Positions 6,001 through 12,000 of a stretch of DNA of 18,683 bases are shown here, one piece after another (position 1 is the stretch's first letter; each line of letters begins with the position of its first letter). Source of the stretch: a virus. The position numbers were made by a program. The DNA lies in the UHGV virus genome UHGV-0367998; one strand, written 5' to 3'.

Positions 6001-9000
6001 TCGCAAAAATCGCTCATCACCGTCACAATTTGTATGACGGTGATCTTCACCATCTGGATGTTACACGGCTCGTTGTGTGAGTTCCGGCTGAATTTGTGGG
6101 GAGCGGAGTTTGCGGCGTTCTTACAGTGTAAGCAGTAGGAAAACCGCGACGGGGACGAAAGTCCCCGTCAACTGGTTGCTGAGGTTCAGCCGATATGGCA
6201 CCCGTTTCTGGTGAGAGAATGGACGACACAATTCTCCGGTATATGCAGCGTGTTGTGAGAAATTCCCGCAACCCTGAATTTATGAATGAAGTTAAAGACG
6301 CCTGCCTTAAAAAGCAGGCATTTTGCTTTGAGGCACCGGATGGTTTTCTGGTGCTGCGTTCTGTGCTCAGTGACGACGGTATCCCTTATGTTCTGGTGTT
6401 GCTGGGTGTGTGTACGGGGAGTGCCGGTGTTGAGCGTTATCTGCCGGAGGTGAAGACATTAACCCGTCTGGCTGGCGGACGCTGGGCTGAATTCCACACG
6501 GCAAGGCGGGGATTTATCCGGCTGGGAAAACGTCTGGGCTTTGAGCGAATGCCAGATGATGAGGATGGCTTCATGGTGTTCAGGATAGCGGTCTGACTGC
6601 CACTGTATTCATTATCGTGTGTAAACCAATTGCAATTCACATTCTGACCCTGCCCCGGCAGGGTTTTTTGTTATCCAGGGGGCCATAATGGGCGGAAAAA
6701 AAGGCGGTGGTGATACCAAAGTAAAACCAACAGCAGCGCAAATAGCACAGGAAGAAGTGGCCTGGAAAGGGTGGCAGGATTATCAAAAAATCCTCCGCCC
6801 GGCTGAAGATAACTTCATGGAAAAGGTCGATGACCTGAACAGTGAGCAGCAGTACGACAATATTGCTGGCACCACAAATCTGGGGTATCAGAAACAGTTT
6901 GGCGAAGCACGGAAGGAGCTGGCGGGTAATCTTGCTCAGTCCGGTGTTGACCCGTCCAGTGGTCGCTTTAACGCGGTAATGAATGCGAACCAGAGTGATC
7001 AGGTAACCGGGCAGATTGACACAACCACACGGGGGCAGGTATCGCAGGCAGATAAGTATGTTGCCGGGCTACAGGATGTTGCGGCTCTCGGTTCCGGTCA
7101 GAAGGCAGATGCGTTACAGAGTTTTAACTCCTTGGCTGACAGCAGTCTGGCAAAAGCCAAATCGGATGCACAGGCGGCGTTTACGAAACAACAGGGGCGA
7201 GCTTCTCTTGTTGGCGCTGGTCTGGGAGCTGTAGGTGCGTACGCGATGCATAAGGCTGGCGGTAACGGAGGTGGTGGCGGCGCTAAAACGCCAGGCACCG
7301 GCGCTAATGCTATTCAGCATCAGGCTCAGAACTGGAGACTGTAATTATGGAGTATGGCAAATACGAAACTCTCGCAAGGGCTGGTTATTCAGGCGCAGCC
7401 CGCCCACAGGGTGACTGGCAGACATCCGCCGCGCTGACACGCCAGCAATACGACGACTGGCGAACCAGATATTTGCCCCGCGTGGCAAGGCTGGCTGACC
7501 TTGGTGAGAACAACAGCCTGATGAATGCACAGCTTGCCCGGGTAGGTGGCCTTGCCACTTCCAGTCTCCGTACAGCGCAGATGGCACAGGATAACCAGAT
7601 GGCGAGATACGGGGTAAACCGTCCGGATAATCCCAACAGTAACACGCTGGGTTTACGTAATGCACTGGCAATTGCTGGCGCGAAAAATGGTATACGGGAA
7701 GCAGAGCAGGATCGCCAGATGAACATACTGACTGGTGCTTCTGCACCTGCAAGACAGCAACTGAGTGTTGGTGGACAACTGGTGTCAGGGTAAGGGGAAC
7801 GATATGGGATACGGTTTACTGGATATTGCGAATCAGTCACGTCGAGAGGCATTACAGGGAATAAGTGACGCCGACAGGCGACGTGAAGAAATTGAGGCTG
7901 CTAACAAGCAGATGGCGGCGCAACAGAAAGCGCAGAACAAGCAGAATATCGGTACGGGCATTGGTACGGGGGCGGCTATGGGCGCTGCCGTTGGTGGTCT
8001 CCCCGGTGCGGCTATTGGTGCTGTCATAGGTGGTCTTGCTGGTTCTTTGTTTTAAGGAGTGGTGAATGAGCGGATTTGCACAGGGGTTACTTGCCGGATT
8101 CAGCACTGTTGACCAGGCAATGACCCGTCGTAAGGAGCTTGGTTTGCGAGAAGCACAGCTTGCTCAGCAACAGAAAAATAACGAGCGCGATTTTGAATTT
8201 GCGCAGTCTCAGTTTGAACATAATAAAGACGTTGATCAGCGGAACTTTGATTACAGAGCCAAAGTTGATGACCGCAATTACACACTGCAGGAAAGGGAGT
8301 TTAACGCCAACCAGAATTACCGGAATGCGTCGCTGGGGATGGAACAGCAACGACTCCAGTTGCAGAAATACAACCAGCGACGGCTTGAGTATAACGATAT
8401 GCTGGCGCGCGATCAGCCTGTGATGGCGGCGCTGGGAAAAGCGATTGATGCGGGTGACCATGATGCGGCTTCTCATCTGTTCGGTAAATTATCGGACGCC
8501 AATCCGCTTAAGATGATGTCAACGGTAGGCTATGCTGCGAAAGCGGGTCAGGCCGTGAACAACCTGCAGAAAATCTTTGATGATAAGCCGGACAGGGCGA
8601 TTGCTTCGCTGAATACCCCGGAAAATCTCGATGTGCTTTCCGGCGTGTTTGCCCCGGAACTACAACAGCGTATTGGCATGCCTGATTCAACCGGGGAAAA
8701 AACGATAAAAGAGGCCAGGATTGGCAGTATCGTACCGGCGCAGCAGGAAGGGTACGTACTTATTGGCCTTGATCTCACATACAGCGATGGCTCCACCGCG
8801 CATAAACCTGTAACAGAATACGGCAGTGCGCACCCTGATGATCAAACCGTGCTGGCGATACCCGTTGATAAGGCTATCGCTCAGGTCAGGGATCGCAGCA
8901 AATTTGCAGAGATATCGAAAAATTATGGTTATTTTATGCCGAAGCAGCAGGGACTTTCTCTGAAAGAGCTTCAGAAGGGGGCCAGCAACGTAGCGGCGGA

Positions 9001-12000
9001 CGCGATCAAGAATGGCGGTAATGCACAGGCTGCGGTGGATGAATATTATGCTGCGACTGGTTCACAACCGCATCAACAGAAAATTCAGCAACAGAAAACC
9101 CAACAGCTTTTACAGAAGTGGCAGACGTGGGCGGCGGGCGATCCGGTTAAACAGGAGTTTGTAAAAGCGACTGCCGCCAATATGCCTGCTTTGCTGGAAC
9201 CTGGTCGTGAAAAGGAGGTGGAAATTTATTACCAGAATCACCTCAGGGATAAAAAGGCAGAGCATGAAAAGGCGCTGGATTATAGCGCTTCCGCATCTGC
9301 CGAGAAGATCAAAGGCTGGATGAAGTAAAAATACGCGGCAGTAACGCACTCACCGTTAATCTCGTTCACTTACGCCCGACCATCGTGTCGGGCTTTTTTT
9401 ACTGGAGTCTGTATGGCTTTTTCAGATGAGCAGCGCCCTGAAGCGCAATTGGGTAACCAGAACCGCAGCAGTCTGAACATTAAGCAGCCGGGAGAAAATT
9501 ACTGGCAGGATTTTTTCAACAACCCGGAGAACGCTGTTGATCACAGCACGTCGTTCAGCCTGGGCGATGTATTGCCAACAATGGGTAAAGGTTTCGCCCA
9601 GTCCGTCCGGGGAACAGGGGAAATGGCCCGTGGACTCGGTGATGCACTTGTAAATAATCCTGTAAAAACGCTTGCCGGGTTGTCGTCTTTCATGACGGAT
9701 GTTTACATGCCGCCTTCCTCCACGCAAAAGGAACTGGGCGCACCACCTTCTGTTGGAGATGCGATTAAAAACATTCCCGATGGAACAGGGAAAAACGCGG
9801 TGACTGATACTGTCGGTAAAGGTCTGAAGGCCACAGGCAAGGCAGTCAGTGATGGTGCCAAAGCCTCGGATGAATGGCTGACAGATCAGATGTCGCCGGG
9901 TGCTGTTCGTGCGCTGAACACGCCAATGAGTGAAGGCTATGATGATTCTGCGGTCTTGCTGACGAAGGGTGTAAACCTGATTGGTGCGCTTGTACCTGAT
10001 CTGGTTGCTGGCGGTGTGGTTAGAAAGGTGGGACAGGTCGCACTGAAAAGAACGCTGACCGCCGGGCTGGAGAAAAAATACATCGCGGCAGGAGTGCAGC
10101 CGGAAAGAGCCACGGCACTGGCAGCAGAAGCTGTCGATAAAAAAATGACGGATTTCTTCCATGCGGGCCTGATCACCCATTCCACAGCCAGTGCACAGGG
10201 GCAGAGTGCAATGTCGGCAGCAGATGCTGTTCTTAATGCGGATTACGCTGAGCTGGCGCAGTCACCGAAATTTCAGCAGACGTTTTTGTCAATTGATGCA
10301 GATCCACAGCACGCACAGCTTACTGATCGCCAGAAAATGGACCTGGCAAAAGAGCGTGTTGCCGATGAGGTGCGCGCGCAGCTGGCAACCGATCCTGAAT
10401 TGCTGGCTGTGAATGCCATGGCGGCAAAACTGGGCGATGCTCAGTTGTTTAATCTGGCGATGCGGGGCACGGCGAAGACCGTTAAAAGCGGCATTGTCAG
10501 AAATGCCACGGAACAGGGGACGATTAATGCGGCGCAGGGTGGCTATTCACGCTATCAGGAAAACACGGCATTGCGTGAGACCGCCGGAATGGATGTGTCA
10601 CCGGGGGAGGGCGTGGCTGACGCAACGATCGAAGGTGCAGCCCTTGGTGCTGCGATGGGCGCACCGTTCGGTGCGGTTGCCGGATATCGTGGAAAACGTC
10701 AGGCCGCAGAAGAAACCGCCATGCGTGAGGCTGAAGTCGTACAGCAGGGTGAAGCAGCCCCGCAACCCGAACCGGCTGATCCGGTGGCACAGCATCGCGA
10801 ATCCATGCAGGGCATGAATCGCGAGCAACTTCTGGAACAGTATGCTGATGCGGATATGGCACCTGAGGGAGACACGTCTGCCGTTCATCGCCGGGAAGCC
10901 GCCAGCCAGCTGTTAAATGAACTGGATGAACAGGCGAAGCGACAGGCGGTGATGGATGAGCTGAAGGCGAAGCCGCGCCCTGAACTGCTTGAGGAATACC
11001 GAAAACTCAGCCTGAAGGAAGGGCGTACTGATACTGAAGAGCAGCAGTTACAGGCTATCCGTGATGTGCTTCGCCCTCAGCAGGAGGCCAGACCGGAGGC
11101 ACAGCCACAGCCGGAAAATGCGGATGATGGCGACGGGAGTATTTACCCGACGGTGCGGTTCCGCGATCCGGATGAAGTTCGTATTGAAATTAACGGGAGT
11201 GGTGCGTCCAGACCAGCAGAACGCATTGAAAAGGTGCGTCCGGACAACCGTTATTTCACGGATGAAAAAAGTGCTCTGGGGAGCGACGTTTTCCGCAATG
11301 CCAGCGCCACCGGCCTGAAACCGTCCGTAGTGAAGAAAGGCGAGAATCAGTATGCCGTTGAAATGGATAATCCTGCGTTCTCTGAAGATGTGGCAACGGA
11401 GACCATTAACACTCTGGCTGACGGAGAGCGTATTACTGATGCTGATCCGATGGAACAGCCCGCGTTCATGCGTGACCCGCGATTCCGTGGTTTTACGGGG
11501 GATGATACAGAAGTGCAGGCCCGTCTTGCCCGTGGCAACGCGCCGACGGCGGAAGAACTGGTGCGTTCCCAGATGGCTGAAGGTGATGCCGGTCCGACAG
11601 CACAGGAGTTAACTGAGCGTCCACGCCTTCCCGCTCCCGGCGATATTCATCCCGGACAGGGATATCCGTTACCGGGAGAAGTAGCGCGTACGCCGGATGA
11701 AAATCAGGCCGGACGTGGTGGTCGTTTTACCACAACCGGTGAGGTGAAGGGCCAGAGTTTCCAGAAAGGACGTGCGCAGGCACCGGAAAATGCCGCTGGT
11801 CGCCAGGGGGAAATACTGGAGGGCGAAACAGTTCGTCGTGGTCTGCCGTCACCGGATGAGCAGAACGCCACAGCGCTGGTACGTGAAGGTCTACCGGCTC
11901 CGGACATTACACACAATGTCCGTATGCCTCAGCCTGATCAGCTTCCCCGAACTGTTCGTAACTCATTGCCTGAGCTCGCACAGCAGGCAGAAGTACGTCG

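What the first reader, a model, noticed from the sequence alone, without database searches (positions are those of the whole stretch)
6688..9412. Four tightly packed small genes precede the giant gene and look like its partner set
The 218-aa, 148-aa, 84-aa and 420-aa genes sit on the same strand with near-zero intergenic gaps (7344/7347, 7793/7804, 8055/8066). They include Gly-rich tails, a C-terminal glycine-zipper helix and a coiled-coil-like protein. Features like these are typical of membrane-active ejection or internal virion proteins, but none matches a family I recognise. Together with the giant gene this is an 11-kb unidirectional module, possibly a DNA-ejection or effector-delivery apparatus.
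Basis: inference. Interest (0 to 1): 0.6.

Follow-up and report, generated by a model that had tools for sequence, protein, structure and literature searches.

The report
Ejection-protein gene cassette of Stx podophage
Four small genes in front of a 2,792-residue gene in a Shiga-toxin-type E. coli prophage encode proteins that are carried inside the virus particle. Together with the giant protein they most likely build the channel through which this short-tailed phage delivers its DNA, a role nobody has yet assigned to them.

Summary
The window is the late region of a 933W/phi24B-like Stx podophage. It holds four tightly spaced genes of 218, 148, 83 and 420 aa, then a 2,792-aa LPD-type polyvalent gene.

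The partner-set reading holds up:
- The same four genes, in the same order, precede a giant ORF in 33 of 36 assessable prophages from different species. The three exceptions look decayed.
- The phi24B orthologues (83-97% identical) are detected in purified virions. Three of them are estimated at tens of copies each, but none appears in the cryo-EM model.
- A distant homologue in Burkholderia phage JC1 is also virion-associated.

New findings:
- The 148-aa and 218-aa proteins are paralogues.
- Three of the four proteins carry GxxxG glycine zippers.
- The 420-aa protein is predicted with confidence to have a ~190 Å helix and has no solved structural relative.
- Its N-terminal two-thirds occurs elsewhere fused to a P22 gp16-type ejection protein.

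Best explanation (0.6): these are internal ejection proteins that form a trans-envelope conduit with the giant protein. This is analogous to, but not homologous with, N4 gp50-52, T7 gp14-16 and P22 gp7/20/16. The main rival is a P1 Dar-like role in packaging the giant protein. No function has been shown directly.

The parts
6195..6596 (+). 133-aa gene (phi24B vb_24B_43 / 'gp52' orthologue), a conserved upstream neighbour of the block.
   Evidence: It is 96% identical to the phi24B protein. Homologues sit directly upstream of the 218-aa homologue in Aeromonas and Vibrio phages and in most scanned prophages. It is not among the proteins listed in the phi24B virion proteome. No Pfam hit was found, and it shows no similarity to the N-acetyltransferase that occupies this position in phage JC1.
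6646..6673 (+). Terminator-like hairpin with a T-run, immediately upstream of the four-gene block.
   Evidence: Consensus scan: 8-bp stem with 5 GC pairs, followed by TTTTGTT. The sequence was read.
6688..7344 (+). 218-aa helical virion protein (phi24B gp51 / vb_24B_44 orthologue). It has a conserved MG(G/K)xGGG N-terminus, a GVDPSSGK loop, a C-terminal GxxxG hydrophobic helix (residues 172-190) and a Gly-rich tail.
   Evidence: - PHROG 611, with a secondary hit to PHROG 8003 'virion structural protein' at 4e-8.
- 95.9% identical to the phi24B protein.
- phi24B proteome: 523 PSMs, peaking in a gel slice that fits about 23 kDa; 82 PSMs in the batch digest.
- G176 and G180 are invariant in 40 homologues.
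- hhalign against JC1 gp64 plus Gervaise gp25: probability 96.9%, E 1.5e-10.
- The AlphaFold2 model has low confidence (pLDDT 44) and is all-helical.
7347..7793 (+). 148-aa basic (pI about 10) helical virion protein (phi24B gp50 orthologue). It is a paralogue of the core of the 218-aa protein but lacks the glycine-zipper tail.
   Evidence: - PHROG 596.
- 96.6% identical to the phi24B protein.
- 83 PSMs in the batch digest of phi24B virions.
- hhalign of the two family alignments: probability 95.1%, E 3e-8 over 115 columns, aligning residues 23-145 with residues 17-138 of the 218-aa protein.
7804..8055 (+). 83-aa protein (phi24B vb_24B_46 / 'gp49' orthologue). It has a charged N-terminal helix and a C-terminal glycine zipper, with G at every fourth position from G52 to G80, and ends in SLF.
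   Evidence: - PHROG 594.
- Gly-zipper_YMGG at 1.6e-6, 28.1 bits against a cut-off of 28.9.
- Kyte-Doolittle 19-residue maximum of 1.69 at residues 57-75.
- 13 PSMs in phi24B virions.
- Only four tryptic peptides of usable size exist, so it will be under-counted.
- The 'bacteriocin' label rests on an 18.2-bit hit against a cut-off of 27.1.
8066..9328 (+). 420-aa virion protein (phi24B gp48 / vb_24B_47 orthologue). It has an N-terminal GxxxGxxxG motif, one predicted helix over residues 2-129 (about 190 Å), a conserved alpha/beta middle domain and a helical C-terminus. It is the most variable gene of the block.
   Evidence: - PHROG 601.
- AlphaFold2 mean pLDDT 88.3.
- Only 72 cluster representatives among 1.84 billion.
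- 82.8% identical to the phi24B protein, against 91.6-96.6% for its neighbours.
- 1,634 PSMs in phi24B virions, peaking near the expected 47 kDa.
- In P0270 its N-terminal ~350 residues are fused to a P22 gp16 homologue.
9374..9400 (+). Conserved hairpin plus T-run between the 420-aa gene and the giant gene, just upstream of the giant gene's GGAG ribosome-binding site.
   Evidence: Terminator-like site with 7 pairs, 6 of them GC. It is conserved in phi24B and Stx2 phage 86 with a compensatory A-T to G-C change in the stem. In other lineages this gap holds inserted genes.
9413..17791 (+). 2,792-aa giant polyvalent protein (phi24B gp47 orthologue). It is virion-encapsidated and is the proposed large ejection and effector protein.
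   Evidence: - Pfam LPD5, LPD1, MuF_C and LPD38.
- 93.3% identical to the phi24B protein.
- Second most abundant protein by PSMs in phi24B virions. The authors did not see it by cryo-EM and propose it as an ejection protein.
- Its C-terminal ~930 residues are shared with giant proteins of Vibrio, Ralstonia and Burkholderia phages.

Best explanation
The four genes encode internal virion proteins that are packaged in the T=9 capsid together with the giant polyvalent protein. All are expelled through the short tail at infection. Together they form the podophage's ejection apparatus (ejectosome).

Proposed roles, all inferred:
- The glycine-zipper proteins insert into the host envelope and make the first pore. 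These are the 83-aa protein and the 218-aa protein, with the latter's paralogue (148 aa) as a likely hetero-oligomer partner.
- The 420-aa protein oligomerises through its ~190 Å helix into a periplasm-spanning tube. Its N-terminal GxxxGxxxG motif sits at a membrane.
- The giant protein follows. It supplies the inner-membrane and cytoplasmic part of the conduit and its variable effector domains.

Shown: tight gene linkage, conserved co-occurrence with a giant gene, presence of the orthologues in virions, absence from the ordered shell and tail, glycine zippers, and paralogy. Inferred: ejection, membrane insertion, the order of exit, and contact with the giant protein.
For: 1. Linkage is conserved at 20-50% protein identity. 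The same four genes in the same order precede an ORF of at least 1,406 aa in 33 of 36 assessable prophages from different gammaproteobacterial species. Six further contexts agree. The domain content of the giant gene varies between them (LPD38 plus MuF_C in one, LPD3 in another).
2. Virion presence. The phi24B orthologues are 83-97% identical. PSM counts (total / batch digest) are 1,634/179, 523/82, 129/83 and 13/6, against 2,226/101 for the portal and 23/6 for the outer-membrane contaminant Lom. Length-normalised estimates are about 37, 32 and 48 copies per virion. The same method recovers known stoichiometries to within about 0.2-2-fold.
3. None of them, nor the giant protein, is in the phi24B cryo-EM model, which accounts for the capsid, portal, adaptors, nozzle, fibres and needle. 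By elimination they are the only candidates for the ejection proteins described for podophages of Gram-negative bacteria (review PMC8954989).
4. Independent proteome. In CsCl-purified Burkholderia phage JC1, gp64 is virion-associated, as are the positional counterparts gp67, gp68 and giant gp69. The interspersed acetyltransferase and PAPS reductase are not. JC1 gp64 is homologous to the 218-aa family (hhalign 96.9%, E 1.5e-10).
5. Fusion evidence. P0270 (1,386 aa) joins the N-terminal ~350 residues of the 420-aa family (PHROG 601, 3.4e-39) to a PHROG 2534 segment and to a region 36% identical to P22 ejection protein gp16 (BLASTP 2e-77).
6. Sequence features fit ejection proteins. There are GxxxG zippers in three of the four proteins, no signal peptides and no cysteines. 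The 420-aa protein diverges fastest. The 218-aa protein has no confident monomer fold.
7. Precedent. The N4 cassette gp50-gp51-gp52 pairs a giant ejected protein with an outer-membrane protein and a tunnel protein encoded alongside it.
Against: - No experiment shows that any of the four proteins leaves the capsid, enters a membrane or touches the giant protein.
- No sequence or fold similarity to T7, P22 or N4 ejection proteins was found.
- No peptidoglycan hydrolase domain was detected in the four proteins. Pfam finds none in the giant protein either, only LPD5, LPD1, MuF_C and LPD38.
- Only the 83-aa protein reaches classical transmembrane hydrophobicity; the 218-aa protein peaks at 0.94.
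- Known cassettes have three proteins and this one has five, so some members may do something else.
- The proteome comes from a preprint. About 40% of particles in that preparation were already empty, and its authors dismissed the 420-aa and 83-aa proteins as contaminants.
- Membrane-active proteins could co-purify with cell debris.
Confidence: 0.6

Rival explanations
1. Dar-like incorporation partners. The four proteins are internal head proteins whose job is to recruit, fold or anchor the giant polyvalent protein in the procapsid. This is what DarA, Hdf and DdrA do for DarB in phage P1. They may be co-injected, but they do not build the DNA conduit.
For: - Co-occurrence with a giant gene is strict.
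- PHROGs labels the LPD38 region of the giant protein 'DarB-like antirestriction'. Relatives in Ralstonia and Burkholderia phages carry that annotation.
- The JC1 authors suggest that unassigned virion proteins may be Dar accessory equivalents.
- The estimated copy numbers of tens per virion are of the same order as that of the giant protein, about 23.
Against: - No similarity to DarA, Hdf, DdrA, DdrB or Ulx families appeared in the Pfam or PHROGs scans.
- This role does not explain the glycine zippers, the ~190 Å helix or the fusion to a P22 gp16 homologue.
- It leaves the phage with no candidate outer-membrane or periplasmic conduit proteins other than the giant protein.
- The two roles are not mutually exclusive.
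Confidence: 0.2
2. Generic internal head proteins. They are capsid-interior proteins with another role, for example charge neutralisation or organisation of the packaged DNA, or portal-proximal core or assembly factors. Their link to the giant gene would then be only positional.
For: - The 148-aa protein is basic, with pI about 10.
- A T=9 capsid holding 57.7 kb leaves room for a protein cargo.
- The proteins are not visible in symmetric reconstructions.
Against: - The other three proteins are near-neutral (pI 6.5-8.2).
- The fixed gene order directly upstream of a giant gene persists across very divergent hosts, even though foreign genes have been inserted within the block. That argues for functional coupling.
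- The fusion to a P22 gp16 homologue argues the same way.
Confidence: 0.12
3. Non-structural accessory genes, as database labels suggest. The 83-aa product would be a bacteriocin and the 420-aa product a transcription factor, and their presence in virion preparations would be contamination.
For: - Records carry the annotations 'putative bacteriocin' and 'similar to putative transcription initiation factor and seryl tRNA synthetase'.
- The phi24B authors classified both as contaminants on the basis of annotation.
Against: - The Bacteriocin_IIc hit scores 18.2 bits against a cut-off of 27.1 and lies in the Gly-rich stretch.
- There is no leader peptide, and no immunity or transporter genes nearby.
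- No DNA-binding domain was found in the 420-aa protein. A long helix would explain a spurious match to seryl-tRNA synthetase; that enzyme's coiled-coil arm is recalled from memory and was not checked here.
- The 420-aa protein gives more batch PSMs than the portal and runs as a discrete band at its expected size.
- The genes lie inside the structural operon in every lineage.
Confidence: 0.03

Closest known systems
Schitoviridae (N4/DEV) ejection cassette: gp50 vRNAP (~3,500 aa), gp51 and gp52
   Same: - Both are T=9 podophages.
- A giant virion-encapsidated multidomain protein is encoded next to small all-helical partners.
- The partners are packaged, are invisible in symmetric maps, and (in N4) insert into membranes and form an outer-membrane complex and a periplasmic tunnel.
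   Different: - No sequence or fold similarity was found.
- The giant protein here has no RNA polymerase module; it carries LPD5, LPD1, MuF_C and LPD38.
- There are four small partners rather than two, two of them paralogues, and they lie upstream of the giant gene.
T7 gp14/gp15/gp16 and P22 gp7/gp20/gp16 ejection proteins
   Same: - Consecutive late genes encode proteins of graded size.
- The proteins are packaged at tens of copies; P22 carries about 12, 12 and 30 (abstract of PMC8402733).
- They have membrane-active segments and evolve fast. The review notes that such proteins are matched across phages by size and synteny rather than by sequence.
- A natural fusion joins the 420-aa family to a P22 gp16 homologue.
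   Different: - No detectable homology: hhalign against P22 gp20 gives probability 0.6%, and there are no PDB hits.
- No lytic transglycosylase domain was found.
- The large component is 2-4 times bigger and polyvalent.
Lessievirus / GP4-like module (Burkholderia JC1 gp63-gp69; Ralstonia Gervaise gp24-gp28)
   Same: - Same position: after the tail genes and directly upstream of a giant virion protein that shares the C-terminal ~900 residues.
- JC1 gp64 and Gervaise gp25 are homologous to the 218-aa and 148-aa families.
- Gervaise gp25 starts MGGKGGGD, like the 218-aa protein, and ends in a glycine zipper.
- JC1 gp64, gp67, gp68 and gp69 are virion-associated.
   Different: - A single 277-332-aa protein stands where this phage has the 218-, 148- and 83-aa proteins.
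- The ~510-aa counterpart of the 420-aa protein shares only the N-terminal Gly-rich motif, and that match is not significant.
- Acetyltransferase and PAPS reductase genes are interspersed.
- The giant protein is about 4,500 aa.
Phage P1 Dar antirestriction system (DarB with DarA, Hdf, DdrA, DdrB, Ulx)
   Same: A very large injected head protein is encoded with several small genes whose products are packaged with it and are needed for its incorporation. This is established knowledge, cited in the JC1 paper.
   Different: - P1 is a myovirus with a contractile tail and needs no ejectosome.
- No homology to the Dar accessory proteins was detected.
- Pfam finds no methyltransferase or helicase domains in this giant protein.

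Membership tests
Podophage ejection (internal/pilot) proteins, as characterised in PMC8954989 | Encoded as consecutive genes in the late structural operon, next to the tail genes. | tested here: met
   The order on one strand is nozzle, needle, two small genes, lom, hok-like ORF, 133-aa gene, the four genes, then the giant gene. The same order is found across lineages.
Podophage ejection (internal/pilot) proteins, as characterised in PMC8954989 | Present in purified virions but not part of the ordered capsid or tail. 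| tested here: met
   This rests on orthologues that are 83-97% identical. The phi24B proteome lists all four, and the cryo-EM model does not contain them. It relies on a preprint's data, not on this phage itself.
Podophage ejection (internal/pilot) proteins, as characterised in PMC8954989 | Leave the particle at infection and locate to the host envelope; required for infectivity but not for assembly. | not testable with these tools
   This needs a comparison of full and emptied particles, membrane fractionation and mutants.
Podophage ejection (internal/pilot) proteins, as characterised in PMC8954989 | Membrane-spanning elements in the small and in the large component. | tested here: inconclusive
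   - The 83-aa protein has a (GxxxG)7 segment with a Kyte-Doolittle maximum of 1.69.
- The 218-aa protein has an invariant G176xxxG180 but peaks at only 0.94.
- The giant protein has moderately hydrophobic segments near residues 180-207 and 2444-2466.
- No dedicated transmembrane predictor was available.
Podophage ejection (internal/pilot) proteins, as characterised in PMC8954989 | Sequence or fold homology to T7 gp14-16, P22 gp7/20/16 or N4 gp51/52. | tested here: not met
   - No PDB sequence or profile hits.
- hhalign against P22 gp20 gives probability 0.6%.
- The review states that such proteins are usually matched by size and synteny. This result therefore rules out family membership but not the function.
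Podophage ejection (internal/pilot) proteins, as characterised in PMC8954989 | A peptidoglycan-hydrolase domain in one component. | tested here: not met
   Pfam finds none in the four proteins. In the giant protein it finds only LPD5, LPD1, MuF_C and LPD38. The phi24B authors suggest that the metallopeptidase-like MuF_C region might serve this role.
P1 Dar system accessory proteins | Homology to DarA, Hdf, DdrA, DdrB or Ulx, and a DarB-type methyltransferase-helicase giant protein. | tested here: not met
   No such Pfam or PHROGs hits for the four proteins. The giant protein matches the 'DarB-like' PHROG 10089 only in its LPD38 region and has no methyltransferase or helicase Pfam domains.
Class II bacteriocin (label carried by the 83-aa gene in databases) | Bacteriocin_IIc domain above threshold, with a double-glycine leader and partner genes for immunity and export. 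| tested here: not met
   The hit scores 18.2 bits against a cut-off of 27.1. No leader is present, and the neighbouring genes are virion genes.
Glycine-zipper membrane segment (Pfam Gly-zipper_YMGG and related) | Repeated GxxxG in a hydrophobic helix; Pfam gathering score. | tested here: inconclusive
   The score is 28.1 bits against a cut-off of 28.9. The motif itself is unambiguous in the sequence: G52, 56, 60, 64, 68, 72, 76 and 80.
PHROGs 611 / 596 / 594 / 601 (unknown function) | Full-length profile match. | tested here: met
   E-values are 2.8e-119, 2.5e-83, 1.7e-42 and 1.2e-195, each covering the whole protein.
GNAT N-acetyltransferase (considered for the upstream 133-aa gene, by position) | Similarity to a GNAT profile or to the acetyltransferase that occupies this position in JC1. 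| tested here: not met
   No Pfam hit for any of 7 family members. hhalign against JC1 gp63 gives probability 0.1-0.2%.

The most novel reading that the evidence does not exclude
The block is a distinct, previously unrecognised ejectosome family. Its small subunits would derive from one ancestral glycine-zipper protein that is now present as an intact copy (218 aa) and a split copy (148 aa core plus 83 aa zipper). A fold-novel tube protein of about 190 Å completes it. On this reading the apparatus is specialised to pass a multi-megadalton protein cargo, roughly 20 copies of a 300-kDa polyvalent effector, as well as the DNA. It would then be a dedicated protein-delivery channel, widespread in gammaproteobacterial prophages and present in over a quarter of complete E. 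coli genomes.
Probability: 0.3. Interest if true: 0.65.

Novelty: new variant of a known kind. Interest (0 to 1): 0.45.

Why it matters
933W/phi24B-type phages spread Shiga-toxin genes, and this block is found in 1,522 of 5,426 complete E. coli genomes. How these short-tailed phages get DNA across the envelope after binding BamA is unknown. The only published structural study names the giant protein alone and sets two of these four proteins aside as contaminants.

Naming a five-protein candidate ejectosome gives concrete targets for mutants, bilayer assays and cryo-ET. It also corrects the database labels 'bacteriocin' and 'transcription factor'.

The finding links the Stx-phage, Vibrio, Aeromonas, GP4-like and Bcep22-like lineages through a shared internal-protein module. 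If the cargo-delivery reading is right, the system would be a second model, besides N4, for moving very large proteins through a phage tail.

Tried and rejected
- **Direct homology to solved or curated families.** Pfam, NCBIfam and PDB sequence or profile searches gave nothing usable for the 218-, 148- and 420-aa proteins.
- **Structure of the 218-aa protein.** The model has pLDDT 44 and could not be used for a fold search.
- **Upstream 133-aa gene as a GNAT.** The idea came from the acetyltransferase at that position in JC1 and Gervaise. No similarity was found, so it was rejected.
- **N-terminal acetylation of the conserved MGG/MGK N-termini.** The word 'acetyl' does not occur in the stored (truncated) phi24B supplement, so the idea was dropped as untestable.
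- **Homology between the 420-aa family and JC1 gp68 / Gervaise gp27, or P22 gp20.** None is significant; only a shared N-terminal Gly-rich motif was seen.
- **Two of the three large protein searches.** They returned only close E. coli or Aeromonas relatives and added little. The exhaustive representative search supplied the diverse set instead.
- **The search for related loci with the 54-sequence alignment.** It failed because the alignment was too divergent.
- **Rfam.** No families were found in the window.
- **Older phi24B papers.** They do not mention these genes.

Full report
**What the window is.** The window is the right-hand late region of a 933W/phi24B-type short-tailed Stx prophage (Sepvirinae).
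- The finding's interval matches 186 phage records over at least 80% of its length, at 90-95% identity in 185 of them.
- The slightly wider stretch 6100-9500 matches 1,522 of 5,426 complete E. coli genomes; the best full-length match is 95.4% identical.
- By synteny with annotated relatives and the phi24B numbering, the + strand carries, in order: the nozzle (1058-2761), the central needle (2758-4026), two small needle-associated genes, lom (5032-5766), a 133-aa gene (6195-6596), the four genes of the finding, and the giant gene (9413-17791).

**Checking the observation.** The one correction is that the '84-aa' gene encodes 83 residues.
- Each gene has a Shine-Dalgarno sequence.
- The Gly-rich tail, the glycine zipper and the coiled-coil-like character are all real.
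  - The 83-aa protein has glycine at every fourth residue from G52 to G80 and falls just under the Pfam Gly-zipper_YMGG threshold.
  - The 420-aa protein begins GxxxGxxxG.
  - The 420-aa protein is predicted with high confidence (mean pLDDT 88) to form one helix over residues 2-129, about 190 Å at 1.5 Å per residue. A conserved alpha/beta domain and a helical C-terminus follow.
- None of the four has a signal peptide or a cysteine.
- Terminator-like hairpins bracket the block. The downstream one is conserved in phi24B with a compensatory stem change.

- An alignment of 218-aa homologues (A2) was scanned against one genome per bacterial species. It returned 41 loci in Enterobacterales, Aeromonadales, Vibrionales, Halomonadaceae, Pseudomonas and Halioglobus.
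- Profile searches of all ORFs in those loci found homologues of the 148-, 83- and 420-aa proteins, in the same order, in 38 of the 39 loci that extend beyond the first gene.
- In 33 of the 36 loci with at least 5 kb downstream, an ORF of at least 1,406 aa follows. It is usually more than 2,000 aa and cut by the flank limit.
- The three exceptions have truncated or fragmented genes.
- Aeromonas phage phiARM81mr, about 100 Vibrio phages and four metagenomic or genomic contigs found through the 420-aa family show the same arrangement. Protein identity there is 20-50%, and the giant proteins have different domain contents.
- Foreign genes have been inserted within the block in several lineages (an HNH endonuclease, or 1-3.4 kb of other genes), yet the order is kept.
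- The 133-aa gene upstream is also syntenic in most lineages.

**Are the proteins in virions?** A 2026 preprint on phi24B (10.64898/2026.04.10.717836) reports cryo-EM and proteomics of purified virions.
- The phi24B proteins are 95.9, 96.6, 91.6 and 82.8% identical to those of the window.
- Its supplementary table lists all four proteins. The counts below are peptide-spectrum matches (PSMs).

| Protein | Total PSMs | Batch-digest PSMs |
|---|---|---|
| 420 aa | 1,634 | 179 |
| 218 aa | 523 | 82 |
| 148 aa | 129 | 83 |
| 83 aa | 13 | 6 |
| Portal | 2,226 | 101 |
| Lom (outer-membrane contaminant) | 23 | 6 |

- The 420-aa and 218-aa proteins peak in gel slices that fit their full-length sizes.
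- Normalising batch PSMs by length to 12 portal copies gives rough estimates of 37, 32 and 48 copies for the three larger proteins, and about 23 for the giant protein. The same calculation recovers the nozzle, fibres and one adaptor closely, and the other calibrators to within about five-fold.
- The 83-aa protein yields only four usable tryptic peptides, so it is under-counted.
- The cryo-EM model accounts for the shell, cement, decoration, portal, adaptors, nozzle, fibres and needle, and contains none of these proteins.
- The authors propose only the giant protein as an ejection protein. They set aside the 420-aa protein ('transcription factor?') and the 83-aa protein ('bacteriocin homologue') as contaminants because of their annotations.
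- Those annotations do not survive testing: the bacteriocin hit is far below threshold, and no DNA-binding domain was found.

**Wider relatives.**
- The C-terminal ~930 residues of the giant protein recur in giant virion proteins of Ralstonia GP4-like phages and Burkholderia Bcep22-like phages.
- In those phages the gene is again preceded by a run of small virion-protein genes.
- Profile comparison shows that JC1 gp64 and Gervaise gp25 are homologous to the 218-aa family (probability 96.9%, E 1.5e-10) and to the 148-aa family (90.6%, E 1.3e-6).
- Gervaise gp25 even begins MGGKGGGD, like the 218-aa protein, and ends in a glycine zipper.
- In CsCl-purified JC1 virions, gp64, gp67, gp68 and the giant gp69 are detected. 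The interspersed acetyltransferase and PAPS reductase are not.

**New structural relations inside the block.**
- The 148-aa and 218-aa families are paralogues: hhalign probability 95.1%, E 3e-8 over 115 columns.
- The glycine-zipper half of the 83-aa protein weakly resembles the C-terminal part of the 218-aa protein (51.6%, E 1.5e-4). Compositional bias is a caveat here.
- So the 148-aa plus 83-aa pair looks like a split second copy of the 218-aa architecture.
- The 420-aa family is small, with 72 representatives among 1.84 billion. It has no solved or annotated structural relative.

**A fusion that points to function.** One family member, P0270 (1,386 aa), has three parts:
- the N-terminal ~350 residues of the 420-aa family;
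- a segment of PHROG 2534, whose annotation is the one carried by P22 gene 20;
- a region 36% identical to P22 ejection protein gp16 (E 2e-77).

The review of ejection proteins describes this kind of mosaic exchange between them.

**Mechanism.** Ejection proteins are described for podophages of Gram-negative hosts generally, apart from those of Gram-positive hosts.
- In this virion the only unplaced proteins are the giant protein and these four (plus a low-abundance needle-tip candidate). The best-supported reading is therefore that the five form the ejectosome.
- The proposed division of labour is glycine-zipper subunits as the pore, the 420-aa protein as the periplasmic tube, and the giant protein as the inner-membrane and effector part. 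It rests on analogy with T7, P22 and especially N4, where a giant ejected protein is encoded with an outer-membrane protein and a tunnel protein. This step is inference.
- The main rival is a P1 Dar-like role in incorporating the giant protein. The two roles could coexist.
- Counter-evidence: no homology to known ejection proteins, no peptidoglycan hydrolase, modest hydrophobicity outside the 83-aa protein, and reliance on a preprint proteome from a preparation that was about 40% emptied particles.

**Novelty and score.**
- Partly known already: virion association, and the giant protein as a proposed ejection protein.
- Apparently new, since no searched paper states them: the assignment of the four as its ejection partners, their strict linkage across Gammaproteobacteria, the paralogy and split architecture, the fold-novel 420-aa protein, and the P22 gp16 fusion.
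- A specialist would find this expected in kind but useful in detail. I rate it a new variant of a known kind, with interest 0.45.

Noticed in passing
window 5998-6138 (+): A 46-aa ORF (MSQKSLITVTICMTVIFTIWMLHGSLCEFRL...) between lom and the 133-aa gene looks like a Hok/Gef type I toxin. RefSeq annotates 'Hok/Gef family protein' in the matching stretch of E. coli genomes. No Rfam family was found in the window.
   Followed up: partly
window 17942-18466 (+): The 174-aa ORF just after the giant gene, in a low-GC stretch, has a SocA/Panacea antitoxin domain (Pfam E 2.5e-19). It is probably a toxin-antitoxin or defence cargo gene at the prophage end.
   Followed up: partly
window 273-773 (+): This 166-aa ORF upstream of the nozzle gene has no Pfam match. 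It sits in the variable slot where related Stx phages carry cor and other accessory genes.
   Followed up: partly
L007:10001-14161 (protein P0270): A 1,386-aa fusion of the 420-aa family's N-terminal part with a P22 gp16-type ejection protein lies in a P4-like island (integrase, AlpA, primase) that has no capsid or tail genes nearby. This may be a satellite carrying its own ejection protein.
   Followed up: partly
window 8066-9328 and about 9099: The 420-aa gene is the most variable of the block, at 82.8% identity to phi24B against 91.6-96.6% for its neighbours. Many Stx phages stop matching at the DNA level near window position 9099 (query position 2412), which suggests a recombination boundary inside its 3' third.
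   Followed up: partly
window 9329-9412; L003, L004, L005, L017, L018, L024, L029, L035, L046: Two junctions act as insertion hot spots. The gap between the 420-aa gene and the giant gene holds 1-3.4 kb of extra genes in several lineages. In Vibrio phages an HNH endonuclease sits between the 83-aa and 420-aa homologues.
   Followed up: partly
L014:5119-5200 (phi24B) versus window 9374-9415: The annotated start of the phi24B giant gene (record position 49148) lies upstream of the ATG that aligns with window 9413. It would place the conserved hairpin inside the coding sequence, so the real start is probably the downstream ATG.
   Followed up: partly
window 14990-17791 (giant protein residues ~1860-2792): This C-terminal module also has tblastn matches in Methanosarcina virus MetMV (28% identity over 90% of the query). 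Shorter matches occur in Bacillus megaterium podophages and a Bacteroides phage. That is an unexpectedly wide host range for one module.
   Followed up: no
window 5789-5809, 6646-6673, 9374-9400: Three terminator-like hairpins lie inside what should be a single Q-antiterminated late transcript, each at a gene-block boundary. The scan found 10 such sites against 4.1 expected.
   Followed up: no
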